In this document: positions 653 through 22,833 of the stretch, piece by piece
Numbering within the stretch: position 1 is the stretch's first letter
Layout: every line of letters starts with the position of its first letter
Source of the DNA: a virus
Taxonomy: Duplodnaviria > Heunggongvirae > Uroviricota > Caudoviricetes
Virus record (IMG/VR): IMGVR_UViG_2529292923_000024
Direction: 5' to 3' (one strand)
DNA length: 28,522 nt
Notes under the pieces: model-generated
The model's input: only the letters and a program-made list of their open reading frames with translations
Told to the model about the DNA's origin: nothing
Database searches by the model: none
Position numbers and translations under genes: made by a program

Positions 653-680
653 AAAACCCGCCTTCAGGCGGGTTTTTTCT
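653..680. terminator. bidirectional rho-independent terminator between convergent transcription units
   Basis: Stem CCCGCC (657-662), loop TTCA, stem GGCGGG (667-672), with an A-run upstream and T-run 673-678 downstream, so it is functional in both orientations. Confidence 0.75.
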
Positions 681-4952: not shown

Positions 4953-5777
4953 TCAGGCGGTGAAAGTACCAATAAAGGTTTCGACTTTGCTGTCTTTGAA
5001 TTTCTCAACAAGCAGATCACGAAATTCGTTAGCCATTTCTTCCTGCACTGCTTCCAGCTGAATAATGCGCAGAACCAGTACAGGGCGATCACCAGTGATA
5101 ATGCTGAGTCGTAATTTAAATGGACGTTCTTTCAGGCCTTCAAACGGAACGCATTTAAATTCAAATGCCACTGGCATAATGTCTTTGGTCTTCGCTTCGA
5201 CAGACTCCATCAGGGAGCGTTTGCCGCTGAAGTCATTGTCTTCAAAATCAGCAGTCTGGTTCGCTTCAATTGTGATTTTACGGACTGCCGCAGCCGCTTT
5301 TGTTGCCTGAATGGCGTCACCATTAGCATCAAAGCCCACAAGGTAGTCGGCCCAGTCTTCAATCCATTCTGCCAGTGACTTCTGGGAGTTACGCTCGCCG
5401 TTAACAGACAACAGAGCAGAGAACGGTGCTGTCTTTTTCAGTTTGAGGGTGGCGGTGTTATCTGCGTGACCTGGTTCATCAATAGTACCCAGGTTAAGCA
5501 CACTGACGGCTCGCATATTATCGGCATCGATAAAGCAGCGGGTGCCTTCATCTGCAAGATCTTTAGAATAACGGGTAAAGTCATCGATGCTGGCAGTGGA
5601 AAGCGCACCACGGAAACGGAAGCGATTTAAATTAAATTTTTCCAGATCATGAATGCGGAAATTCTCAGGCAATGCCACAGCATCGGCACCAATCTTACTG
5701 ATAATTTCATTAACACCCTGAGCAGAAATAAGGGCATGGATTTGATTAATTGCGGTTGCGTCTAAGTTCTGAGACAT
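4953..5777 (-). CDS. yfdQ: YfdQ-like (DUF2303) prophage protein
   Basis: 274 aa; sequence ([16 protein letters not shown]...) matches the CPS-53 YfdQ family as recalled; adjacent to the yfdR and yfdP homologues. Confidence 0.7.
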
Positions 5778-6662: not shown

Positions 6663-7316
6663 TCAAAAATCCATTATTACTTGTTTGACAAGACCAACTA
6701 TTCTGCAGTTCTCACCGCATTCAATAGTTTTATAGTTAGGATTTAGTGGGACGAGATACCTGTTCGGCCAGTCCTCAACAAATTTTTTGAGTGTCGCTTC
6801 TTGCCCACCATTGATATGGGCAACAACGATTTTTCCGTTAATACACTCTGTATCAATAATATCTGGCTCTACGATAACGATAGAACCTTCTGGTATCGAT
6901 GGTGAGCCGAGGGGATTGGTCATTGAATCACCACGGACCCGTAGTGCAAATGCCATTTCTGATACAAGGGCGGTAGTATAAACCCACTCTTCAGCATCTT
7001 CTTTCCTGACACCAGGCTCCGTCATTGTCCATGAACCCGCCTGAACCCACGAGATTAGGGGGACTTTTTTAACTGCGAATATTTCAGGTTTTAGATTTAT
7101 CTTTGGTTCAGGCGAGCCTTTTCCGCTAACAAGCCACAGAGGATCGCATTTAAGTGCGTTGGCTAGGGCTTGAAGGTTGGCTCCATTTGGTTGGTAGTCG
7201 TCCTTTTCCCATCCAGTAACCGTGACACGGTTCACACCAGTCAAATCAGCCAGTGCTTGTTGTGTCAGGTTCAGTTCTTTTCGCCTTTGGCGAATACGAT
7301 CACTCATGTTCATCAT
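6663..7316 (-). CDS. cI: CI-like prophage repressor (HTH domain plus LexA-type S24 peptidase domain)
   Basis: 217 aa; N-terminal XRE HTH (LNLTQQALADLTGVNRVTV), C-terminal S24 peptidase signature (VRGDSM ... K); divergent from cro with operators on both sides. Confidence 0.85.
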   Translation of the reverse strand: MMNMSDRIRQRRKELNLTQQALADLTGVNRVTVTGWEKDDYQPNGANLQALANALKCDPLWLVSGKGSPEPKINLKPEIFAVKKVPLISWVQAGSWTMTEPGVRKEDAEEWVYTTALVSEMAFALRVRGDSMTNPLGSPSIPEGSIVIVEPDIIDTECINGKIVVAHINGGQEATLKKFVEDWPNRYLVPLNPNYKTIECGENCRIVGLVKQVIMDF

Positions 7317-10591: not shown

Positions 10592-11082
10592 TCATGAGTC
10601 TGTTAAATGACGTTCAGAAATTCATTGAAGCCCATCCGGGCTGTACTTCCGGAGACATTGCGGATGCTTTTGCAGGTTACTCACGGCAGCGCGTTCTGCA
10701 GTCAGCAAGCAAGTTACGTCAGAGTGGGCGTGTGGCTCACCGTTGTGAAGGAGATACACACAGACATTTCCCGCGCCTGACTGAGAGAGCGCAGGATCCG
10801 GAACTACAACCAGTTCGTGAAACCAGACCTGTGCGCAATTTCTATGTCGGCACTAACGACCCGCGGGTGATTTTGTGCCTGACCCGCCAGGCGGAAGAAC
10901 TGGAGTCCAGGGGCTTATACCGTCGTGCTGCAACGGTGTGGATGGCGGCATTCCGTGAAAGCCACTCCCAGCCAGAACGAAACAATTTTCTGGCGCGTCG
11001 TGAACGGTGTTTACGGAAAAGCAGTAAGCGGGCTGCATCAGGTGAAGAGTGGTATCTCTCAGGGAATTACGTGGGGGCTTAA
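10588..11082 (+). CDS. PerC-family-like transcriptional regulator (tentative)
   Basis: 164 aa; the C-terminal segment LESRGLYRRAATVWMAAFRESHSQPERNNFLARRERC resembles the PerC/Pch regulator motif as recalled. Confidence 0.4.
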   Translation: MIMSLLNDVQKFIEAHPGCTSGDIADAFAGYSRQRVLQSASKLRQSGRVAHRCEGDTHRHFPRLTERAQDPELQPVRETRPVRNFYVGTNDPRVILCLTRQAEELESRGLYRRAATVWMAAFRESHSQPERNNFLARRERCLRKSSKRAASGEEWYLSGNYVGA

Positions 11083-11233
11083 TGAGTAATAAATATTGCC
11101 AGGCGCTGGCGGAACTGCGGAACAAACCAGCCCATGAACTGAAGGAAGTGGGCGATCAGTGGCGCACGCCGGACAACATTTTCTGGGGAATTAACACCCT
11201 GTTTGGCCCGTTTGTTCTGGATCTGTTCACTGA

Positions 11234-13255
<2,022 letters not shown>

Positions 13256-13689
13256 TCAGAACGCCTTGCGGAGCTTAAAGGTGCTGCCTTTGGTAATCCC
13301 CCATACAGCCGCGCCAGTCAGCATGAGGGGCAATACATCACCGGCATGCGTTACATCATGAAGCATGCCAGTGCCATGCGTGATAAAGGCGGGCGCTATG
13401 TTTTCCTGATCAAAGCTGCCACCAGCGAAGTGTGGTGGCCGGAAGATGCAGATCATATTGCTTTTATTCGCGGGCGTATTGGTTTTGAACTGCCTGCCTG
13501 GTTTATCCCGAAGGATGAGAAGCAGGTGCCGACAGGCGCTTTCTTCGCTGGTGCTATTGCTGTTTTCGACAAGACCTGGAAGGGACCGGCAATCAGCTAC
13601 ATCGGGCGCGATGAACTTGAGGCATGTGGTGAGGCCTTTCTGGCGCAGGTTCGCCAGCAGGCAGAAAAACTGGTCAGGGAGATGGTGGC

Positions 13690-14016
13690 ATGACGACGTT
13701 AACTCAATGCCAGCAGCAGGTGCTGGATATGCTGATTTCTTATCAGAAAGAACGTGGCTTCCCGCCAACCAATCAGGAGGTGGCAACCATGCTGGGATAC
13801 CGTTCAGTGAATGCAGCGGTGGAGCATCTTCGCGCACTGGAGAAAAAAGGCGTCATCACGATAAAGCGTGGCGTGGCCCGGGGCATCACGCTTCATACCG
13901 CGGTGAAGGACGACGACAGCGAGGCGGTCGGGATTATCCGCTCACTGCTTGCCGGTGAGGAAAACGCCAGGCTGCGTGCAACCCACTGGTTACATAAGAG
14001 GGGCCTGAAAGTATGA
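13690..14016 (+). CDS. LexA DNA-binding-domain-only protein (no peptidase domain)
   Basis: 108 aa; strong similarity in pattern to the LexA N-terminal winged-helix domain (QQQVLDMLISYQKERGFPPTNQEVATMLGYRSVNAAVEHLRALEKKGVI); no S24 domain follows; ATGA overlaps with both neighbours. Confidence 0.6.
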   Translation: MTTLTQCQQQVLDMLISYQKERGFPPTNQEVATMLGYRSVNAAVEHLRALEKKGVITIKRGVARGITLHTAVKDDDSEAVGIIRSLLAGEENARLRATHWLHKRGLKV

Positions 14017-14402
14017 AGCTGATCCTGCCTTTCCCGCCCAGCGTGAACACGTACTGGCGACACCCCAACAAAGGGGCGTTTGCAGGTAAGAGCCTGATAA
14101 GCGCGGCGGGGCGAAAATTTCAGAGCGCGGCGTGCGCAGCAATAGTTGAACAGTTACGTCGTCTGCCGAAACCAACGTCGGCACCTGCTTCAGTGGAGAT
14201 CGTGTTGTTTCCTCCGGATAACAGGATCCGCGATCTGGACAACTATAACAAGGCGCTGTTTGACGCCCTGACCCACGCGGGGGTGTGGGAAGACGACAGT
14301 CAGGTGAAAAGAATGCTGGTGGAGTGGGGACCGGTTATCCCGGAAGGGAAGGTCGAGATCACTATCAGTAAGTACGAGAAAACGGCGGGTGCAGCTGCCT
14401 GA
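14013..14402 (+). CDS. rusA: RusA-like Holliday junction resolvase
   Basis: 129 aa; RusA signature (LPFPPSVNTYW ... RDLDNYNKALFDALTHAGVWEDDSQV). Confidence 0.8.
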   Translation: MKLILPFPPSVNTYWRHPNKGAFAGKSLISAAGRKFQSAACAAIVEQLRRLPKPTSAPASVEIVLFPPDNRIRDLDNYNKALFDALTHAGVWEDDSQVKRMLVEWGPVIPEGKVEITISKYEKTAGAAA

Positions 14403-14421: not shown

Positions 14422-15231
14422 ATGAATAATCTGATGGTCATTGATGGTATTGAAGTTCGTCGTGATGCTTATGGGCGTTACAGCCTGAACGATCTGCATC
14501 GCGCAGCAGTAGCATCTGGTGCAAATGCCAGAACCAAGGAGCCAGGAAAGTTTCTTTCCAGCCAACAAACTGTTGAGCTTGTTCATGAATTAACCAACAC
14601 CCAGAATTTGGGTGTTGACCCGGTGAGTGTGATTCATGGGGGAAATGAACGGGGAACGTATGTCTGTAAGGAACTGGTGTATGCCTATGCAATGTGGATC
14701 AGCCCGTCATTCCATCTGAAGGTGATCCGTACTTTCGATATGGTAACCAGCGCGCCGGAAAAGTTATCCGGACAGGCTGCTGACAAGATGCAGGCTGGCG
14801 TGATCCTGCTGGACTTTATGCGCCGGGAGTTAAATCTGTCTAACTCTTCAGTGCTTGGTGCCTGTCAGAAACTCCAGGAGGCTGTTGGCTTACCGAATCT
14901 GGCACCGCGCTATGCCATTGATGCTCCTGCTGACGCGCCTGATGGCTCAAGCCGCCCGACACTGTCACTGAGTGCACTGCTGAAGCAGTATGGTATCCGC
15001 CTGACAGCTAATCAGGCATATCACCAGATGGCGAAGCTGGGGATCGTTGAACAACGTGAACGATACAGCCGTACCGCGATTAACAACATCAAAAAATTCT
15101 GGTCGCTGACGGCGAAAGGCTGCATGTTCGGCAAGAACATCACCAGTCCCGCAAATCCGCGCGAGACGCAGCCGCATTTCTTCGAATCCCGATTCCCTGA
15201 GCTGTTAAAGCTACTCGATACCGTTCATTGA
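14422..15231 (+). CDS. KilA-N domain protein (antirepressor-like)
   Basis: 269 aa; N-terminal KilA-N-type segment (LMVIDGIEVRRDAYGRYSLNDLHRAA); good RBS. Confidence 0.6.
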   Translation: MNNLMVIDGIEVRRDAYGRYSLNDLHRAAVASGANARTKEPGKFLSSQQTVELVHELTNTQNLGVDPVSVIHGGNERGTYVCKELVYAYAMWISPSFHLKVIRTFDMVTSAPEKLSGQAADKMQAGVILLDFMRRELNLSNSSVLGACQKLQEAVGLPNLAPRYAIDAPADAPDGSSRPTLSLSALLKQYGIRLTANQAYHQMAKLGIVEQRERYSRTAINNIKKFWSLTAKGCMFGKNITSPANPRETQPHFFESRFPELLKLLDTVH

Positions 15232-15326
15232 GGTGACCGTGAGAGCACTACTGACCCCTGAAATTGCCCCGCGTATGGGGATCGTATTGTTCAGGCCAGG
15301 TTCAGAGCTGATGCCCCTGTTTATGC

Positions 15327-16876
15327 CTGTCTCTTATACACAAATCCCCACCCGGGGATTTGTGATGTCTGTCAGTCTGCTTTAGGGGGACTCTTTCCAT
15401 CCGGTAGTTTCCTTCCTCCCCGGCAGCGATTTTTTGAACTTTTTCCTCACCCGTTGATCTTCTCTTATATTTCATTTTCTTCGGGTCTGTTATGGTACTT
15501 TCTGATTGTTATTCATGGGCTAACGAGCAGTTTTGACATGCCCGTCTCGGTGATCCGCGTCGTACACGACGCCTTGTGTCACTGGCCTCTTCTCTCGCTC
15601 AGCATGCAGGTCTTTCTATTGTGAAATCATCCCAGTCCACTGCTCAGGTTGAAGGTGCGTACCGCCTGATACGTAACCCGTCTGTGTCCCCGCAAGCCAT
15701 TGCCGAAGCCGGATTTACCGCCACTGTAAGGGCATGTGAGGCTCATCCGCTGCTCCTCGCGCTGGAAGACACCACCACCATTAACTTCAGTCACAGTACG
15801 GCATCTGATGACCTGGGGAATACCACCACTAACCCGAAGACGCGCGGGCTGCTGGCTCACTCTGTCCTGATGTACGCCCCCGACAGCGCCCTGCCAGTCG
15901 GTCTTATCGAACAGCAGCGCTGGAGTCGTGCCACGGACACCTACGGTGTTAAGCACCAGCGAAAAGAACGTCCCTATGAAGAAAAAGAAAGTTACCGCTG
16001 GCAGCAGGCTTCGGAGCGCATGGCCGAACGGCTGGGGGAGATACAGAAACGGGTAATCACTGTCTGTGACCGGGAAGCGGATATCTGGCATTACCTGCAT
16101 TATAAAGTCAGCCACGGGCAGCGCTTCGTGGTGCGTGCAGCACAGAATCGCCGGCTGGAAGAAGCACCCGGCAAGCTCTTCGAACTGCCGGAAGTCCTGG
16201 CAACCGCGGGAAGCCACACGCTGAATGTGATGCAAAAAGGCGGGCGGGCAGCCCGCCAGGCCCGGATGTTCATCAGTTACAGCGAAGTCAGCATAAAAAA
16301 TCCCGACAACAGCGGCCAGGCGCTCCCGCTCACGTATGTCTGTTGCCGGGAGCAGGCAGAGGACGGCGCCTGCTGGCATCTGCTGACGTCAGAAAAAGTG
16401 GCGAGTGCCGCCGATGCGCGACGTATCGTCAGCCATTACGAGCGACGCTGGCTGATAGAGGAATACCACAAGGCGTGGAAAAGTGGTGGTACATGTGTGG
16501 AATCGCTGCGAATGCAGACCCGGGATAACCTCGAGCGCATGGTGGTTATCAAGGCGTTTATCGCGGTGCGGGTGCTGGGCCTGCGGCAGGGCGGTATCAG
16601 TGAAGAAACACAAAATGACAGCTGTGAGAAAATACTGACGCCGACAGAGTGGAAACTGCTGTGGGTTAAGCTGGAAGGAAAACCGCTTCCGTCACAGATG
16701 CCGACACTGAAATGGGCCTGTCTGAAACTGGCGAAACTGGGGCGATGGCATGACAGCAAACGCACCGGTCGCCCCGGTTGGGTAGTCATGTGGGATGGCT
16801 GGTTCAGACTTCAGGATATGGTTGAGGGTTACCTGGTGATGAAGTCTCTTGATCAGGAGATCTGATCAAGAGACAG
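15327..16876 (+). mobile_element. IS4-family (IS50/Tn5-like) insertion sequence, 1550 bp, flanked by 8-bp direct repeat GTTTATGC
   Basis: Left end CTGTCTCTTATACACAAAT (Tn5 outside-end-like), right end AGATCTGATCAAGAGACAG (Tn5 inside-end-like); transposase stop lies within the right end as in IS50; direct repeats at 15319-15326 and 16877-16884. Confidence 0.85.
15492..16865 (+). pseudogene. IS50-like (Tn5 Tnp family) transposase with an in-frame TGA at codon 15
   Basis: ATG 15492, then 14 codons, then TGA 15534-15536, with the frame continuing into the 429-aa ORF (GTG 15576 to 16865); aligns with recalled Tn5 Tnp throughout (GDPRRT, EGAYRLIRNP, DREADI, YERRWLIEEYHKAWK, DSKRTG). Confidence 0.75.
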
Positions 16877-16880
16877 GTTT

Positions 16881-17786
16881 ATGCAGGGGCGTGTCCTGCT
16901 GGAGCCAGAGCCGGAACGTTATTCATCTTTCGCCAGTGGTGCCGTTCCGGCGGCATCACAACCGCTGGCGGATGATCCTGCCGTTCGGACCGTGTTCCGC
17001 AATGAGGCAGTGATCCGTCGTGCTGGTGGCGTGGAATGTCTTGAAAGCTGGTTACTTCGTGAAAAAGGTTGCCAGTGGCCTCATTCCGACTGGCACAGCG
17101 AGAACATGACCACAATGCGACACACGCCGGGCGCAATCCGTCTGTGCTGGCACTGCGATAACCAGCTGCGCGATCAGTTCACGGAACGGCTGGAATCAAT
17201 GGCAACGGATAACTGTACCCGCTGGGTGTTGTCTGTTGTGCGTCGGGATCTCGGTTTTGATGACAGTCACGTTGTGACAATGCCGGAACTGTGCTGGTGG
17301 CTGATTCGTAATGACCTGGCGGATGCCTTACCGGAAAGTGCAGCCCGTAAGGCACTGAGATTACCGAAGCCTGTTGTGCCGTCTGTCACCCGGGAAAGTG
17401 ACCTTGTGCCTTCGGTTCCTGCCACCAGCATCATCCAGGATAAAGCGAAAAAGGTGCTGGCGCTGAAAGTGGATCCGGAGTCGCCGGAGTCTTTTATGTT
17501 ACGCCCAAAACGTCGCCGCTGGGTTAATGAAAAGTACACGCGCTGGGTTAAGACACAGCCGTGTGCATGTTGTGGAAAGCCCGCTGATGATCCCCACCAC
17601 CTGATAGGCCACGGTCAGTGTGGAATGGGTACAAAAGCGCATGACCTTTTTGTGTTGCCTTTGTGCAGAAAGCATCACGACGAGCTGCATGCGGATACCG
17701 TGGCATTTGAAGAGAAGTATGGCTCTCAGCTGGAGCTGATATTTCGTTTTATCGATCGTGCGCTGGCAATTGGCGTACTGGCGTAA
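16881..17786 (+). CDS. DUF968-family protein with C-terminal HNH-like Cys/His motif; 5' end displaced by the IS50-like insertion
   Basis: 301-aa ORF beginning at the ATG inside the right direct-repeat copy; 29 in-frame codons with a GAGGTG RBS and GTG start lie at 15239-15325 left of the IS, so the native gene was about 329 codons. Confidence 0.6.
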   Translation: MQGRVLLEPEPERYSSFASGAVPAASQPLADDPAVRTVFRNEAVIRRAGGVECLESWLLREKGCQWPHSDWHSENMTTMRHTPGAIRLCWHCDNQLRDQFTERLESMATDNCTRWVLSVVRRDLGFDDSHVVTMPELCWWLIRNDLADALPESAARKALRLPKPVVPSVTRESDLVPSVPATSIIQDKAKKVLALKVDPESPESFMLRPKRRRWVNEKYTRWVKTQPCACCGKPADDPHHLIGHGQCGMGTKAHDLFVLPLCRKHHDELHADTVAFEEKYGSQLELIFRFIDRALAIGVLA

Positions 17787-17799
17787 GTGGAGAACGAGC

Positions 17800-18552
17800 A
17801 TGAACCTTGAAGCCTTACCGAAATATTACTCCCCGAAATCTCCAAAACTGAGCGATGACGCACCGGCGACAGGCTCTGGTGGTTTAACAATTACGGATGT
17901 GATGGCTGCGCAGGGGATGGTGCAGTCAAAAGCACCGCTTGGGTTTGCTTTATTCCTGGCAAAAGTTGGTGTTCAGGATCCTCAGTTTGCGATTGAAGGT
18001 CTGCTCAATTACGCGATGGCACTGGATAACCCGACATTGAATAAATTGAGTGAAGAAACCCGGCTACAGATCATTCCTTACCTTGTGAATTTTGCCTTTG
18101 CTGATTATTCCAGGTCTGCGGCAAGTAAGGCTCGCTGTGAGCATTGTGCTGGTACTGGATTTCATAATGTATTGCGCGAGGTGGTGAAACACTCCAGAAG
18201 CGGGGAATCTGTTATTAAGGAAGAGTGGGTGAAGGAACTATGTCAGCATTGTCATGGTAAGGGAGAAGTCAGCACAGCATGCAGAGGGTGCAAGGGTAAA
18301 GGTATTGTCCTGGATGAAAAAAGAACCCGGCTTCATGGCACGCCTGTTTATAAGGTTTGTGGGCGTTGCAATGGAAACCGGTTTAGCCGTTTACCAACCA
18401 CACTGGCGCGGCTTCATGTCCAGAAGCTGGTACCAGACCTGACGGATTATCAGTGGTACAAAGGATATGCAGATGTCATTGATAAACTGGTTACAAAGTG
18501 CTGGCAGGAAGAAGCATATGCAGAGATACAATTGAGAAAGGTGACAAGATAA
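17800..18552 (+). CDS. Q: late-gene antiterminator Q (Qin quuQ / phage 82 type)
   Basis: 250 aa from MNLEALPKYYSPKS; Cys clusters (CEHCAGTG, CQHCHGKG, CRGCKGKG, CGRCNGN); followed by a pR'-like promoter and terminator. Confidence 0.8.
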   Translation: MNLEALPKYYSPKSPKLSDDAPATGSGGLTITDVMAAQGMVQSKAPLGFALFLAKVGVQDPQFAIEGLLNYAMALDNPTLNKLSEETRLQIIPYLVNFAFADYSRSAASKARCEHCAGTGFHNVLREVVKHSRSGESVIKEEWVKELCQHCHGKGEVSTACRGCKGKGIVLDEKRTRLHGTPVYKVCGRCNGNRFSRLPTTLARLHVQKLVPDLTDYQWYKGYADVIDKLVTKCWQEEAYAEIQLRKVTR

Positions 18553-18657: not shown

Positions 18658-18684
18658 GAACCCGCCGATGCGCGGGTTTTTTTG
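18658..18684 (+). terminator. tR'-like rho-independent terminator
   Basis: CCCGC-CGATGC-GCGGG hairpin followed by T7 (18677-18683), about 70 nt downstream of the putative pR' start. Confidence 0.7.
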
Positions 18685-19054: not shown

Positions 19055-19130
19055 GGCCCTTTAGCTCAGTGGTGAGAGCGAGCGACTCATAATCGCCAGG
19101 TCGCTGGTTCAAATCCAGCAAGGGCCACCA
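19055..19130 (+). tRNA. ileZ: tRNA-Ile2 type (anticodon CAU, ileX/ileZ-like)
   Basis: Cloverleaf assembled by hand: acceptor GGCCCTT/AAGGGCC, anticodon loop CTCATAA, TPsiC GGTTCAAAT, 3' CCA; near-identical to E. coli ileX as recalled. Confidence 0.85.
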
Positions 19131-19137
19131 TCACATA

Positions 19138-19214
19138 CCGCCATTAGCTCATCGGGATAGAGCGTCAGCCTTCGAAGCTGGCTGTGCGGGGTTCAAGTCC
19201 CCGATGGCGGTCCA
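19138..19214 (+). tRNA. argN: tRNA-Arg (anticodon UCG)
   Basis: Acceptor CCGCCAT/ATGGCGG, anticodon loop CTTCGAA, TPsiC GGTTCAAGT, 3' CCA. Confidence 0.8.
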
Positions 19215-19227
19215 TTATCAGCATCAT

Positions 19228-19304
19228 GCGTTGTTAGCTCAGTCGGACAGAGCAATTGCCTTCTAAGCAATCGGTCACTGGTTCGAATCCAGTACAACGC
19301 GCCA
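19228..19304 (+). tRNA. argO: tRNA-Arg (anticodon UCU)
   Basis: Acceptor GCGTTGT/ACAACGC, anticodon stem ATTGC/GCAAT with loop CTTCTAA, TPsiC GGTTCGAAT, 3' CCA. Confidence 0.85.
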
Positions 19305-19902: not shown

Positions 19903-20069
19903 TCCCGTAACTGAGGTCGCTATTGGCGGCCTTTTTTGTATCCGCGCCACGCCCGGCGCATATCAACCACAGAGCCTTTCGGGGGTGAGCTTACGGAGTG
20001 GTCAGTGTGACTTTCTCTGTGGGCAGATCGCTCCCGGGCGTTGGCTCACCCACCCAAAGGAACGTCACG

Positions 20070-20501
20070 ATGTTTGGTATTTTTGGTAAAAAAGCCCGCC
20101 GAGCGGCAGTGGAAATTAAAAAGTTTGAGAAACGTGATCTGGCACAGGCGGTTATTAATGCTGCCTATCTGGTGGCCTATGCAGATGGTGAATGTGAGGC
20201 TTCAGAGAAAGCGAAGATCGAGCAGATCTTGCGTAACCAGCCTGCGTTGTCCGCGTTTACGTCAGAAATTAATGCGATTAGCGCAACCATTATCGGTCAG
20301 CTGGATACGAACTTTAAAATTGGTCGTCGAGCGGCATTGCGTGAAATTGAAGATGTGAAACACGATACGCGTGAAGCGGAAGATGTGCTGGATGTGGCGG
20401 TGGCCATTGCGGAGGCAGACGGCGAAATTGAGCCGGAAGAGCGCAAGGTGCTGGAAGAGATTGCCGGTGTTCTGGGTCTTCGTCTGGAGAATCACCAGTG
20501 A
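20070..20501 (+). CDS. TerB-like (tellurite-resistance TerB family) protein
   Basis: 143 aa from MFGIFGKK; paired acidic DGE motifs (AYADGECEASEKAKIE and AEADGEIEPEERKVLEEIAGVLGL) typical of the TerB fold. Confidence 0.55.
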   Translation: MFGIFGKKARRAAVEIKKFEKRDLAQAVINAAYLVAYADGECEASEKAKIEQILRNQPALSAFTSEINAISATIIGQLDTNFKIGRRAALREIEDVKHDTREAEDVLDVAVAIAEADGEIEPEERKVLEEIAGVLGLRLENHQ

Positions 20502-20979: not shown

Positions 20980-22833
20980 ATGTCGATTAAACATTATGAT
21001 GTTGTCAGGGCGGCGTCGCCGTCAGACCTTGCGGAAAAGCTGACACACAAACTGAAAGAGGGCTGGCAGCCGTTTGGTAGTCCGGTGGCCATAACCCCTT
21101 ATACCCTGATGCAGGCGATTACAGCAGAAGGTGATGTGGTGGTCAGTGGTGCAACTGAGCCGGATTGGTACTACGTCATCGTACTGGCCGGGCAGTCCAA
21201 TGCCATGGCTTACGGTGAAGGGCTTCCGCTGCCGGATTCATACGATGCTCCGGATCCGCGCATTAAACAGCTGGCGCGCCGCAGTACAGTTACGCCGGGT
21301 GGGGCTGCATGCAGATATAACGATATTATTCCGGCCGACCACTGCCTGCATGATGTGCAGGATATGAGTACGCTGAATCATCCGAAGGCAGACCTGAGCA
21401 AAGGGCAGTACGGCTGTGTCGGCCAGGGCTTACATATTGCCAAAAAACTGCTCCCGTATATCCCGAATAACGCGGGGATCCTGCTGGTACCATGCTGTCG
21501 TGGTGGTTCGGCATTCACCCAGGGCGCGGAGGGGACATTCAGTGCGGACACGGGGGCCAGCCAGGATTCGGCACGCTGGGGTGTGGGTAAACCGTTATAT
21601 CAGGACCTGATTGCGCGCACTAAAGCTGCATTACAGAAGAACCCGAAAAATGTGTTGCTGGCGGTGTGCTGGATGCAGGGAGAGTTTGACATGAGCGCCG
21701 CCACCCACGCACAGCAACCTGCGCTGTTTACAGCCATGCTGACACAGTTTCGTGCTGACCTCTCCGTGTTTAACGCGCAGTGCCATGGTGGCAGTGCTGC
21801 AGATGTGCCGTGGATTTGTGGTGACACGACGTATTACTGGAAAAATACATACGCTACCCAGTACGACACCGTGTACGGCGGGTATAAAAACAGGGAGAGT
21901 GAGGGCGTTTATTTTGTGCCCTTCATGACAGACGGTAACGGCGTCAATACCGCCACTAACGCACCGGCAGAAGATCCGGATATTCCGGCATCAGGATATT
22001 ACGGTGCGGCATCGAGAACGAATGGAAACCAGGTATCATCAAACCGCCCGACACATTTCAGTTCATGGGCGCGCAGGAGCATTATTCCGGATCGTATGGC
22101 AACCGCTATTCTGAACGCAGCCGGGCGCACCTCAGCTTTCATCAGTGGTAAGGCACCGGAAATCAAACCCTCGCCCGGCGGCAACACGCCATCGGGGCCG
22201 TCTGAAGATGCATCCGTACGCACAATCTCCCTGTTGCCGACAGCCGGAGAGGCTGCTGCGCAGGGCTGGACCATTAAGGACGGCGGAATTCAGTTGTCGG
22301 GTGGTGTATTTAAGATCGCCAAGCAGAGCAATAAAACCTGGTCCCTGATGCATCCGGTGGATGACGCAGTCTCCCTGCTGACACGGGGTGGCAGACTGAG
22401 CTGTAAGTTTCGACTGTCAGGCGCACTGACCAACAACCAGTTCGGCCTGGGAATTTATCTGTATACCGATGTAGCGTTACCTGACGTCGTGGCGATGACC
22501 GGGACTGGTAACCCGTTCCTGATGTCGTTCTTCACCCAGACCACAGACGGCAAACTGAATCTGATGCATCACAAGAAAGCAGGAAACACAAAGTTGGGCG
22601 AGTTCGGGAATTACAGTAATGACTGGCAGACGCTGGAACTGGTGTTCACCGCCGGCAGTGCCACGGTTACTCCGAAACTGAATGGAGTGGCTGGCCCGGC
22701 ATTCCAGGTCATAAAAGACAGTCTGACACTGGGGCTGAATGCGCTGACGCTGACGGATATTACCAAAAATGCAGCGTATGGCGTTGAGATAGAAAGTCTG
22801 GTGCTGGAGATAAATGCACCGGCATCATCATAA
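20980..22833 (+). CDS. nanS: prophage sialate O-acetylesterase NanS-p (DUF1737 plus SASA/SGNH esterase domain plus C-terminal domain)
   Basis: 617 aa; N-terminal DUF1737-like MSIKHYDVVRAASPSDLAEKLTHKLKEGWQPFGSP; esterase GQSN motif (VIVLAGQSNAMAYGE). Confidence 0.75.
   Translation: MSIKHYDVVRAASPSDLAEKLTHKLKEGWQPFGSPVAITPYTLMQAITAEGDVVVSGATEPDWYYVIVLAGQSNAMAYGEGLPLPDSYDAPDPRIKQLARRSTVTPGGAACRYNDIIPADHCLHDVQDMSTLNHPKADLSKGQYGCVGQGLHIAKKLLPYIPNNAGILLVPCCRGGSAFTQGAEGTFSADTGASQDSARWGVGKPLYQDLIARTKAALQKNPKNVLLAVCWMQGEFDMSAATHAQQPALFTAMLTQFRADLSVFNAQCHGGSAADVPWICGDTTYYWKNTYATQYDTVYGGYKNRESEGVYFVPFMTDGNGVNTATNAPAEDPDIPASGYYGAASRTNGNQVSSNRPTHFSSWARRSIIPDRMATAILNAAGRTSAFISGKAPEIKPSPGGNTPSGPSEDASVRTISLLPTAGEAAAQGWTIKDGGIQLSGGVFKIAKQSNKTWSLMHPVDDAVSLLTRGGRLSCKFRLSGALTNNQFGLGIYLYTDVALPDVVAMTGTGNPFLMSFFTQTTDGKLNLMHHKKAGNTKLGEFGNYSNDWQTLELVFTAGSATVTPKLNGVAGPAFQVIKDSLTLGLNALTLTDITKNAAYGVEIESLVLEINAPASS

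What the first reader, a model, noticed from the sequence alone, without database searches (positions are those of the whole stretch)
13690..14016. LexA look-alike lacking the autocleavage domain
The 108-aa protein matches the LexA N-terminal DNA-binding domain closely in pattern but has no S24 peptidase domain. A non-cleavable LexA-like DNA binder expressed from the prophage early operon could occupy SOS boxes and alter host SOS or prophage induction, or act as an antirepressor-type regulator. It is tightly coupled to rusA.
Basis: partly seen in the sequence, partly recalled or inferred. Interest (0 to 1): 0.5.

Follow-up and report, generated by a model that had tools for sequence, protein, structure and literature searches.

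The report
Phage LexA-like DNA binder without protease
This is a real, intact and very common prophage gene for a small DNA-binding protein copied from the front half of the SOS repressor LexA; databases already annotate it, nobody has tested its function, and the evidence leans against it simply sitting on host SOS boxes.

Summary
ORF 13690-14016 (+) encodes 108 aa. Residues 1-68 are a LexA-type winged helix-turn-helix (Pfam PF01726 E=2.9e-19; 43% identity to E. coli LexA; 1.0 Å rmsd to DNA-bound LexA). There is no S24 peptidase domain. In its place is a conserved two-helix hairpin (residues 74-103).

The gene is not new. It is SfV orf42 and mEp460_046, belongs to PHROG 362, and occurs in 2,233 of 5,426 complete E. 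coli genomes as "LexA family transcriptional regulator". I found no functional study. It is under strong purifying selection (pN/pS 0.08) and is joined by ATGA overlaps to dam and rusA in the delayed-early operon.

The SOS-box idea is plausible but weakened:
- Four of five LexA base-contact residues are kept, but Glu44 is never kept in this family (11 of 13 true LexAs keep it).
- Recognition helices differ between clades.
- In seven divergent Klebsiella/Enterobacter-type loci, a canonical SOS box heads the operon while the helices differ, so host LexA probably reads those boxes.
- The window has no canonical SOS box.

The closest functional precedent is GIL01 gp6. The target DNA is unknown. 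Interest is modest.

The parts
13690..14016 (+). Complete CDS of the 108-aa LexA-like protein (same gene as SfV orf42 and mEp460_046; PHROG 362)
   Evidence: ORF; Pfam PF01726 E=2.9e-19; phrog_362 E=1.3e-59 over the full length; 98-99% identical DNA in SfV, mEp460, SfIV and Stx2c phages; pN/pS 0.08
13690..13893 (+). Residues 1-68: LexA-type winged helix-turn-helix. Recognition helix is residues 40-52 (SVNAAVEHLRAL around Ser39); the wing includes Arg64-Gly65.
   Evidence: AF2 secondary structure H6-22, H28-35, H40-52, E56-58, E66-68; Foldseek 3jso rmsd 1.0 Å over 68 residues; residue numbering matches E. coli LexA without gaps; pN/pS 0.022
13894..13908 (+). Residues 69-73: flexible linker. It aligns with the LexA hinge.
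   Evidence: pLDDT below 50 for residues 71-73; alignment to the LexA hinge
13909..13998 (+). Residues 74-103: conserved two-helix hairpin that replaces the S24 domain. Inferred to be a dimerisation or partner-binding module.
   Evidence: AF2 H74-88 and H93-103 with pLDDT about 90; Ala97 and Leu101 invariant down to 38% identity; no Pfam family above noise; pN/pS 0.20
13677..13693 (+). GGGAG ribosome-binding site, then the ATGA overlap of the dam stop codon with the lexA-like start codon (translational coupling)
   Evidence: Read directly from the sequence
14013..14402 (+). rusA (Holliday-junction resolvase). Its ATG overlaps the lexA-like TGA (ATGA at 14013-14016).
   Evidence: Pfam RusA E=6.1e-15; directly downstream of the lexA-like gene in all close loci and in most divergent loci
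13187..13693 (+). 3' part of the phage dam (N6-adenine methyltransferase) gene, cut off from its 5' part by IS100
   Evidence: Pfam Dam E=5.6e-32, matching the profile only from position 29; alignment to the intact dam of L014
11234..13186 (+). IS100 (IS21 family) inserted in dam 504 bp upstream of the lexA-like start codon. 5-bp target duplication ACTGA (11229-11233 and 13187-13191). istB is frameshifted.
   Evidence: 99.9% identity to annotated IS100 copies, 1953 bp here against 1954 bp there
6663..7316 (-). The prophage's own cI-type repressor (HTH_3 + Peptidase_S24). This is the RecA-sensitive switch that sits upstream of the operon carrying the lexA-like gene.
   Evidence: Pfam Peptidase_S24 E=3.6e-25 and HTH_3 E=1.1e-15
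14422..18552 (+). Rest of the nin-region block: KilA-N gene (14422-15231), IS4/Tn5-like transposase insertion (15576-16865), DUF968 (16881-17786), Q antiterminator (17758-18552)
   Evidence: Pfam; same order in mEp460 and in related loci

Best explanation
The gene encodes a small phage DNA-binding regulator derived from LexA. Residues 1-68 are a LexA-type winged helix-turn-helix. A short floppy linker follows, and then a conserved two-helix hairpin (residues 74-103) stands where LexA has its S24 autoprotease and dimerisation domain. With no S24 domain, the protein cannot respond to RecA*.

It is made only once the rightward delayed-early operon is transcribed. That happens after the prophage's own cleavable cI repressor is inactivated. 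In Klebsiella/Enterobacter relatives it happens after host LexA leaves an SOS box at the head of the operon. Translation is coupled to dam upstream and rusA downstream.

My preferred mechanism is that the hairpin makes the protein a dimer, which then binds a palindromic site related to the SOS box but not identical to it. On this view it acts as an induction-phase regulator, in the manner of GIL01 gp6, and is not a general stand-in for LexA on SOS boxes.

Shown here: the domain make-up, the fold, the absence of a protease domain, the operon position and coupling, purifying selection, and SOS control of the operon in relatives.

Inferred: dimerisation through the hairpin, sequence-specific binding, a specificity different from LexA, and a regulatory role. 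The target DNA is unknown.
For: - Domain and fold.
- Hairpin conserved down to 38% identity, with Ala97 and Leu101 invariant and a confident model.
- Strong purifying selection: DNA-binding domain pN/pS 0.022, tail 0.20.
- DNA-binding scaffold residues Ser39, Lys53, Arg64 and Gly65 are invariant and Asn41 nearly so. Positions 40 and 42-46 of the recognition helix differ between clades, as expected if clades have different operators.
- Glu44 is present in 11 of 13 true LexAs but in no family member.
- In 7 of 7 divergent loci a perfect CTGT-N8-ACAG box heads the operon that carries the gene. The chance of this is about 0.002 per locus, and the surrounding DNA is otherwise unalignable. Their recognition helices differ, and L098 and L099 have near-identical boxes but different helices. 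So host LexA reads those boxes, and the phage protein is an output of SOS, not a reader of those boxes.
- Precedent: GIL01 gp6 is a truncated LexA homologue, 44% identical to the host LexA DNA-binding domain, made from a LexA-repressed early promoter. It binds its own palindrome, not the LexA boxes, and activates the late promoter (PMC6182141).
- LexA-domain-only proteins are common in phages.
Against: - No operator was found. No recurring palindrome occurs in the window, and none sits at a conserved position across clades.
- The same allele (97-100% identical) travels with unrelated cI, replication and Q modules. A phage-borne target therefore cannot be in the immunity or late-control regions. 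It would have to lie inside the almost gap-free perC-dam-lexL-rusA-kilA-DUF968 block, or be in the host. That is unlike gp6, and it keeps host targets, including SOS boxes, in play.
- Four of five LexA contact residues are retained in this E. coli clade.
- Dimerisation is an inference from a monomer model.
- The near-constant adjacency to rusA has no explanation under a purely transcriptional role.
Confidence: 0.4

Rival explanations
1. RecA-proof LexA surrogate. The protein dimerises through the hairpin and binds canonical host and phage SOS boxes. This would re-repress all or part of the SOS regulon, or LexA-controlled genes of co-resident prophages, after host LexA has been cleaved.
For: - About 50% identity and 1.0 Å rmsd to the LexA DNA-binding domain.
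- Ser39, Asn41, Ala42, Glu45, Arg64 and Gly65 are conserved.
- The allele is uncoupled from the phage immunity and Q modules, which fits a constant host target.
- In Klebsiella prophages the gene shares an SOS-box-headed operon with dinI, another SOS modulator.
- From my own knowledge: LexA residues 1-87 fused to any dimerising module repress SOS operators in LexA-based bacterial two-hybrid systems. So the architecture would suffice if specificity is retained.
Against: - Glu44, the most conserved recognition-helix position among the true LexAs sampled (11 of 13), is never Glu in the family. Pro40 is also changed.
- Recognition helices vary between clades whose Enterobacteriaceae hosts are expected to share one SOS box.
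- P0086 has a 91% identical RusA neighbour but the helix SVNTIAGH.
- The SOS box at the operon head stays canonical while the helices diverge.
- There is no canonical SOS box in this window.
Confidence: 0.25
2. DNA-binding accessory of the recombination module. The protein binds DNA non-specifically or in a structure-dependent way and acts with RusA, for example by recruiting, positioning or restraining the resolvase on replicating phage DNA.
For: - ATGA translational coupling to rusA.
- rusA lies directly downstream in all close loci with enough sequence. It lies within one small ORF in the divergent loci L002-L012, L094 and L096.
- Base-contacting helix positions vary between clades while backbone and scaffold residues are invariant, a pattern also expected for a non-specific binder.
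- From my own knowledge: lambda NinH, a small DNA-binding and bending protein, is encoded next to the rap/ninG resolvase gene.
Against: - L093, L098 and L099 have the gene but no rusA between it and DUF968.
- From my own knowledge: many lambdoid phages carry rusA without this gene.
- Within the E. coli clade the recognition helix is essentially invariant and the DNA-binding domain has pN/pS 0.022. That is tighter than a non-specific binder would need.
- The conserved gene order may only reflect the general nin-region layout.
Confidence: 0.15
3. A protein-binding regulator (antirepressor or decoy) that uses the hairpin, or the retained 'LLAGE' stretch aligned with the LexA Ala84-Gly85 cleavage site, to engage cI, LexA or RecA*.
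For: BLASTP aligns query 86-LLAGE-90 with LexA 82-VAAGE-86. The hairpin is conserved and has no assigned function.
Against: - The Ala-Gly pair is not conserved in the family: AN, VG, ER, TR and DD occur at those positions.
- The same allele is found with at least three unrelated cI types.
- The strongest constraint is on the DNA-binding domain, not the tail.
Confidence: 0.05
4. A non-functional remnant of a captured lexA gene.
For: It is a truncated homologue, and this particular prophage is riddled with IS elements.
Against: pN/pS is 0.08. Full-length relatives exist down to 38% identity with a conserved tail. The gene is present in 41% of complete E. coli genomes and in viable phages.
Confidence: 0.02

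Closest known systems
E. coli LexA N-terminal DNA-binding domain (PDB 1lea; 3jso in complex with DNA)
   Same: Same winged helix-turn-helix fold (rmsd 1.0 Å over 68 residues), about 50% identity in the domain, and gap-free residue numbering. Ser39, Asn41, Ala42, Glu45, Arg64 and Gly65 are retained.
   Different: No S24 peptidase/dimerisation domain, so no Ser119/Lys156 catalytic pair and no RecA*-induced cleavage. Glu44 is Val and Pro40 is Val. A 35-aa helical hairpin follows the hinge. The gene is phage-encoded in the nin region.
Bacteriophage GIL01 gp6 (Fornelos et al. 2018, PMC6182141)
   Same: A phage-encoded truncated LexA homologue consisting mainly of the DNA-binding domain, 44% identical to the host LexA domain. 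It is made from an early operon that turns on with SOS. In the Klebsiella/Enterobacter relatives of this gene the operon is likewise headed by a LexA box.
   Different: gp6 is shorter and has no helical hairpin. It comes from a tectivirus of Bacillus. Its operator (GaCACAnnTGTGaC) and its activator function were shown experimentally, whereas no target is known here. The relationship is at the fold and Pfam level only (Tectiviridae hits at 23-28% identity).
Engineered LexA(1-87) fused to a dimerisation module, as in LexA-based bacterial two-hybrid systems (own knowledge, not checked here)
   Same: The same design: a LexA DNA-binding domain plus a heterologous dimeriser gives a non-cleavable operator-binding repressor.
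   Different: Those constructs keep the wild-type recognition helix. Here the helix is altered (P40V, E44V) and dimerisation is only inferred.
PHROG 362 'transcriptional repressor' / RefSeq 'LexA family transcriptional regulator' (SfV orf42, mEp460_046)
   Same: This is the same gene: full-length PHROG match at E=1.3e-59 and 98-100% DNA identity.
   Different: Nothing differs. These names are annotations by homology. I found no experimental study.

Membership tests
LexA SOS repressor (TIGR00498 / COG1974) | N-terminal LexA-type winged helix-turn-helix (PF01726) | tested here: met
   PF01726 E=2.9e-19 over the full profile; 3jso rmsd 1.0 Å
LexA SOS repressor (TIGR00498 / COG1974) | C-terminal S24 peptidase domain with the Ser119/Lys156 catalytic pair, which also provides dimerisation | tested here: not met
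   The protein ends at residue 108. No PF00717 hit. TIGR00498 scores 70.7 bits against a 110.95 cutoff and matches only profile positions 1-91 of 203.
LexA SOS repressor (TIGR00498 / COG1974) | Ala84-Gly85 self-cleavage site used in RecA*-stimulated autocleavage | tested here: not met
   An Ala-Gly pair aligns with the site in this protein. It is not conserved in the family, and there is no protease domain to use it.
LexA SOS repressor (TIGR00498 / COG1974) | Recognition-helix contact residues Ser39, Asn41, Ala42, Glu44 and Glu45 (PMC3091678) | tested here: inconclusive
   Four of five are kept and Glu44 is Val. Position 44 is Glu in 11 of 13 true LexAs and in no family member.
LexA SOS repressor (TIGR00498 / COG1974) | Binds CTGT-N8-ACAG SOS boxes | not testable with these tools
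   No canonical box in the window. Indirect co-variation evidence argues against it. EMSA or ChIP is needed.
Phage truncated LexA homologues (GIL01 gp6 type) | [quoted passage not shown] | tested here: met
   It carries an extra helical hairpin that gp6 lacks.
Phage truncated LexA homologues (GIL01 gp6 type) | Expressed from an early operon that is switched on by SOS | tested here: met
   The gene lies between the replication genes and Q, downstream of an S24-type cI. In 7 of 7 divergent relatives a canonical SOS box heads the operon. Expression itself was not measured.
Phage truncated LexA homologues (GIL01 gp6 type) | Binds its own palindrome at a late promoter and activates transcription | not testable with these tools
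   No candidate operator was found. The allele is uncoupled from the Q and late region, which argues against a late-promoter site.
PHROG 362 | Full-length profile match | tested here: met
   E=1.3e-59, residues 1-108 against profile positions 1-106 of 106

The most novel reading that the evidence does not exclude
The protein is a RecA-proof replacement for LexA. It would be made only after host LexA (or the phage's cI) has been destroyed, would dimerise through its hairpin, and would re-occupy a subset of LexA-type operators. In Klebsiella prophages it would be co-expressed with DinI from one SOS-box-headed operon, forming a two-part phage module that shuts the host SOS response down again during lytic growth. 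This could affect induction of co-resident prophages, including Stx phages.
Probability: 0.2. Interest if true: 0.65.

Novelty: new member of a known kind. Interest (0 to 1): 0.3.

Why it matters
The gene is present in about 41% of complete E. coli genomes, in Shigella serotype-converting phages and in Stx2c phages, yet its function has never been tested. If it does re-bind LexA-type operators, it would be a widespread phage device for reshaping the SOS response. That bears on prophage cross-induction, Shiga-toxin release and antibiotic-induced mutagenesis. If it instead has its own operator, it is an enterobacterial counterpart of GIL01 gp6 and another case of a host repressor domain recruited into a phage circuit. 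Either outcome can be settled with simple experiments. As it stands, this is an already-annotated homology call and not a discovery.

Tried and rejected
1. SOS-box searches. Eighteen matches with up to one mismatch were found against 9.8 expected. The three exact cores lie inside ORFs and have GC-rich spacers, and a stricter scan found none. The mild excess probably reflects the common CTG and CAG codons.
2. Inverted-repeat, promoter and terminator scans around the gene gave no operator and no private promoter.
3. Enumerating palindrome families across the window found only a terminator-like hairpin present twice.
4. A search for palindromes at a conserved position across clades found nothing consistent.
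5. The idea that the aligned Ala-Gly is a retained cleavage site was rejected, because the pair is not conserved.
6. Scanning the tail alone against Pfam gave only noise.
7. PADLOC gave no defence-system assignment for the gene.
8. Literature searches for a functional study of this family found only annotation-level mentions.
9. The Zhang et al. 2010 LexA-DNA structure paper is not held in the library, so the precise role of Glu44 could not be cited.
10. The genome-contig scan with the nine-sequence divergent alignment (A4) failed for lack of a conserved stretch. The narrower four-sequence alignment (A5) returned mostly genuine host lexA genes and only three new family loci.
11. The viral-contig scan returned only near-identical copies. 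These were useful for the mosaicism analysis but not for studying diversity.

Full report

Yes. An ATG-initiated ORF of 108 codons lies at 13690-14016 on the + strand. A GGGAG ribosome-binding site sits 8 nt upstream. Pfam's LexA_DNA_bind model (PF01726) matches residues 1-65 over its whole length (E=2.9e-19, 69 bits against a cutoff of 23.7), and there is no Peptidase_S24 hit. NCBI's full-length LexA model TIGR00498 matches only profile positions 1-91 of 203 and scores below its cutoff (70.7 against 110.95 bits). phmmer against the PDB finds the E. coli LexA DNA-binding domain (1lea, E=6.9e-16). BLASTP gives 43% identity to E. coli LexA over residues 1-90.

An AlphaFold2 model built on a 23-sequence family alignment (mean pLDDT 83.8) has three parts:
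- a winged helix-turn-helix (helices 6-22, 28-35 and 40-52; strands 56-58 and 66-68);
- a low-confidence linker (residues 69-73);
- a confident two-helix hairpin (residues 74-88 and 93-103).

The N-terminal domain superimposes on DNA-bound LexA (3jso) at 1.0 Å over 68 residues with about 50% identity. The hairpin has no LexA counterpart. The reading frame is confirmed by purifying selection across 46 distinct alleles: pN/pS is 0.08 overall, 0.022 in the DNA-binding domain and 0.20 in the tail.

**2. Genomic setting**

The window is a lambdoid prophage. Gene order, with window coordinates:
- a cI-type repressor with an S24 domain (6663-7316, minus strand);
- a CII-like gene, a Rha/Ash gene, a replication gene and a PerC-like gene;
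- dam, the lexA-like gene, rusA and a KilA-N gene;
- DUF968 and the Q antiterminator;
- three tRNA genes, a TerB-like ORF and a NanS-type esterase gene;
- lysis genes and the Nu1 terminase gene.

Its start codon overlaps the dam stop codon (ATGA at 13690-13693). Its stop codon overlaps the rusA start codon (ATGA at 14013-14016). It has no promoter of its own.

This copy of the prophage is damaged. An IS100 element (11234-13186, 5-bp target duplication ACTGA, istB frameshifted) splits dam 504 bp upstream of the lexA-like start codon. An IS4/Tn5-like transposase gene sits between the KilA-N gene and DUF968. The lexA-like gene itself is intact and is 100% identical to copies in other viral contigs.

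**3. It is already known as a sequence, but not as a function**

The same gene at 98-99% DNA identity is orf42 of Shigella phage SfV and mEp460_046 ("LexA DNA binding domain protein"). It also occurs in SfIV, SKA5 and many Stx2c-converting phages. It is present in 2,233 of 5,426 complete E. coli genomes, where PGAP names it "LexA family transcriptional regulator". It is PHROG 362, "transcriptional repressor". A survey of Stx phages merely lists it as a pfam01726 phamily (PMC8136144). Six literature searches found no experimental work on it.

**4. The family**

An exhaustive phmmer search found short full-length relatives (105-165 aa) down to 38% identity that keep the same tail. Invariant positions across the family alignment are Leu4, Gln8, Pro26, Glu30, Ser39, Leu50, Lys53, Ile56, Arg64, Gly65, Ile66, Ala97 and Leu101. 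Asn41 is nearly invariant. The tail matches no Pfam family.

The Ala-Gly pair that BLASTP aligns with the LexA cleavage site is replaced by AN, VG, ER, TR or DD in relatives. It is therefore not a functional feature. LexA-domain-only proteins are common in phages generally, including Tectiviridae and Mycobacterium phage Wildcat.

**5. Linkage**

Among 80 viral contigs carrying an essentially identical allele, linkage to neighbouring modules is as follows. Denominators differ because each count includes only loci with enough sequence on that side.

| Neighbouring module | Result among close carriers |
|---|---|
| rusA | follows directly in every locus; >=95% identical in 74 of 75 |
| DUF968 | >=95% identical in 64 of 67 |
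| dam | absent in 25 of 78 |
| Q antiterminator | window's type in 32 of 65 |
| cI repressor | window's type in 5 of 75 |
| replication genes | vary between loci |

In divergent relatives the order lexA-like → (0-1 small ORF) → rusA → DUF968 → Q persists. However, L093, L098 and L099 lack rusA, so rusA is a habitual neighbour and not an obligatory one.

This mosaic pattern means the protein is not tied to any particular immunity or late-control module. A phage-borne target would have to lie within the nearly gap-free perC…DUF968 block, or else the target is in the host.

**6. Does it read SOS boxes?**

Points in favour:
- Four of the five LexA DNA-contact residues (Ser39, Asn41, Ala42, Glu44, Glu45; PMC3091678) are kept.
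- The wing residues Arg64 and Gly65 are invariant.

Points against:
- Glu44 is Val and Pro40 is Val.
- Among the retrieved proteins, position 44 is Glu in 11 of 13 true full-length LexAs. It is never Glu in the roughly 70 tailed family members with that position aligned, where it is V, A, T, F, L or Y.
- The helix differs between clades that live in Enterobacteriaceae hosts, which are expected to share one SOS box. P0086, whose RusA neighbour is 91% identical, has SVNTIAGH where this protein has SVNAAVEH.
- The window has no canonical SOS box.

**7. An unexpected comparative result**

Seven divergent loci were examined: L010, L012, L093, L094, and L098-L100 (from Klebsiella sp., K. pneumoniae ATCC 13883 and Enterobacter sp.). 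In all seven, a perfect CTGT-N8(AT-rich)-ACAG box lies at the head of the operon [dinI, or a recA_C-like ORF, or neither] – small ORF – lexA-like – small ORF – [rusA] – DUF968 – Q. For the four loci tested, the surrounding DNA is otherwise unalignable (41-53% identity) and the chance of such a box in 500 nt is about 0.002 per locus.

The box core is constant, but the lexA-like recognition helices in these loci are SPNAAAEH, SSNAVLLH, SPYAAYEH and SQNTVFIH. L098 and L099 have almost the same box but different helices. The simplest reading is that host LexA reads these boxes and the phage protein is an SOS-induced product. This is the same circuit logic as GIL01, where LexA represses the early promoter that makes gp6. 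gp6 is a truncated LexA homologue that binds its own palindrome and activates the late promoter (PMC6182141).

**8. Mechanism and rivals**

I commit to a RecA-insensitive, hairpin-dimerised winged-helix regulator with a LexA-related but distinct operator, acting after induction (confidence 0.4). The rivals are:
- a true SOS-box surrogate (0.25);
- a non-specific or structure-specific DNA binder working with RusA (0.15);
- a protein-binding decoy or antirepressor (0.05);
- a dead remnant (0.02, effectively excluded by the selection data).

The main weaknesses of my preferred reading are that I could find no operator and that the mosaicism argues against a site in the immunity or late regions. 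Dimerisation is inferred from a monomer model and from the general need of LexA-type domains for a dimerising partner (own knowledge).

**9. Verdict**

The feature is an already-annotated member of the known class of phage LexA-domain-only proteins. Its distinctive points are a conserved hairpin tail and its habitual coupling to rusA. Interest is modest (0.3). The most interesting reading still open, a phage-encoded RecA-proof LexA replacement possibly paired with DinI, has a probability of about 0.2.

Noticed in passing
L010 4560-4579; L012 4561-4580; L093 513-532; L094 4242-4277; L098 5381-5400; L099 5380-5399; L100 5560-5579: In Klebsiella/Enterobacter-type prophages a perfect SOS box heads an operon that runs from dinI (or a recA_C-like ORF, or neither) through the lexA-like gene to the Q antiterminator. 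This suggests host LexA directly gates Q, and therefore late genes, in these phages. L094 has two overlapping boxes.
   Followed up: partly
window 11234-13186: IS100 (IS21 family) is inserted in the phage dam gene, with 5-bp target duplication ACTGA. The copy is 1953 bp against 1954 bp in reference copies, and its istB is split into two ORFs (12339-12860 and 12935-13120). The related contig L014 lacks this insertion.
   Followed up: yes
window 15576-16865: An IS4/Tn5-like transposase gene (429 aa) is inserted between the KilA-N gene and DUF968, separating Q from the early operon. The viral contig L014 shares this insertion, because DUF968 lies at +3191 from the lexA-like start in both, against +1633 in most loci.
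   Followed up: partly
L001 (mEp460) 10597-10616 and 1546-1565; L012 7739-7758: The canonical SOS box TACTGTAAAAATAAACAGTG sits at the start of a DNA methylase gene downstream of Q in mEp460. L012 has a near-identical box (CACTGTAAAAATAAACAGTG), and 26 of 80 viral loci carry the mEp460 sequence. A second box, TACTGTTTTTACATACAGTA, lies inside the cI-type repressor gene of mEp460 and occurs in 20 of 80 loci. These boxes go with particular modules and are not linked to the lexA-like gene.
   Followed up: partly
window 19055-19304, 19998-20501, 20980-22833: The late region looks like that of a Stx phage but has no toxin genes. Downstream of Q are tRNA-Met, tRNA-Arg and tRNA-Arg genes, then a TerB-domain ORF and a DUF1737-SASA (NanS-p-like) esterase gene, followed by the holin, lysozyme and Rz genes.
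   Followed up: partly
proteins P0131, P0132, P0149, P0152 and others: Some proteins contain two tandem LexA DNA-binding domains in one chain (two matched stretches; for example P0131 at 222 aa and P0132 at 141 aa). This is a different way of making a bivalent, non-cleavable LexA-type binder.
   Followed up: no
L012 4963-4983; L094 about 4953-4975: A stem-loop lies in the short gap between the small upstream ORF and the lexA-like gene. The loop CCTGAACAA is conserved and the stems co-vary (CGCTGG/CCAGCG against TAGCTGG/CCAGCTA), so it may be an RNA element. L010 and L100 instead have TGCGCCA-N12-TGGCGCA spanning the start codon.
   Followed up: no
L094 4310-4597: A 95-aa ORF matching only the RecA C-terminal domain (PF21096, E=9e-10) lies directly behind the double SOS box, in the position where other loci have dinI.
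   Followed up: no
window 655-680 and 18659-18684: The same hairpin, AACCCGC-N6-GCGGGTT, occurs twice. One copy is just downstream of Q and has a T-run, so it looks like a terminator.
   Followed up: no
loci L010, L012, L093, L094, L098-L100: Two conserved small ORFs of unknown function flank the lexA-like gene in the divergent subclade: a 75-82 aa ORF upstream (phrog_1813) and a 66-67 aa ORF downstream (phrog_1212). The window-type phages do not have these ORFs in those positions.
   Followed up: partly
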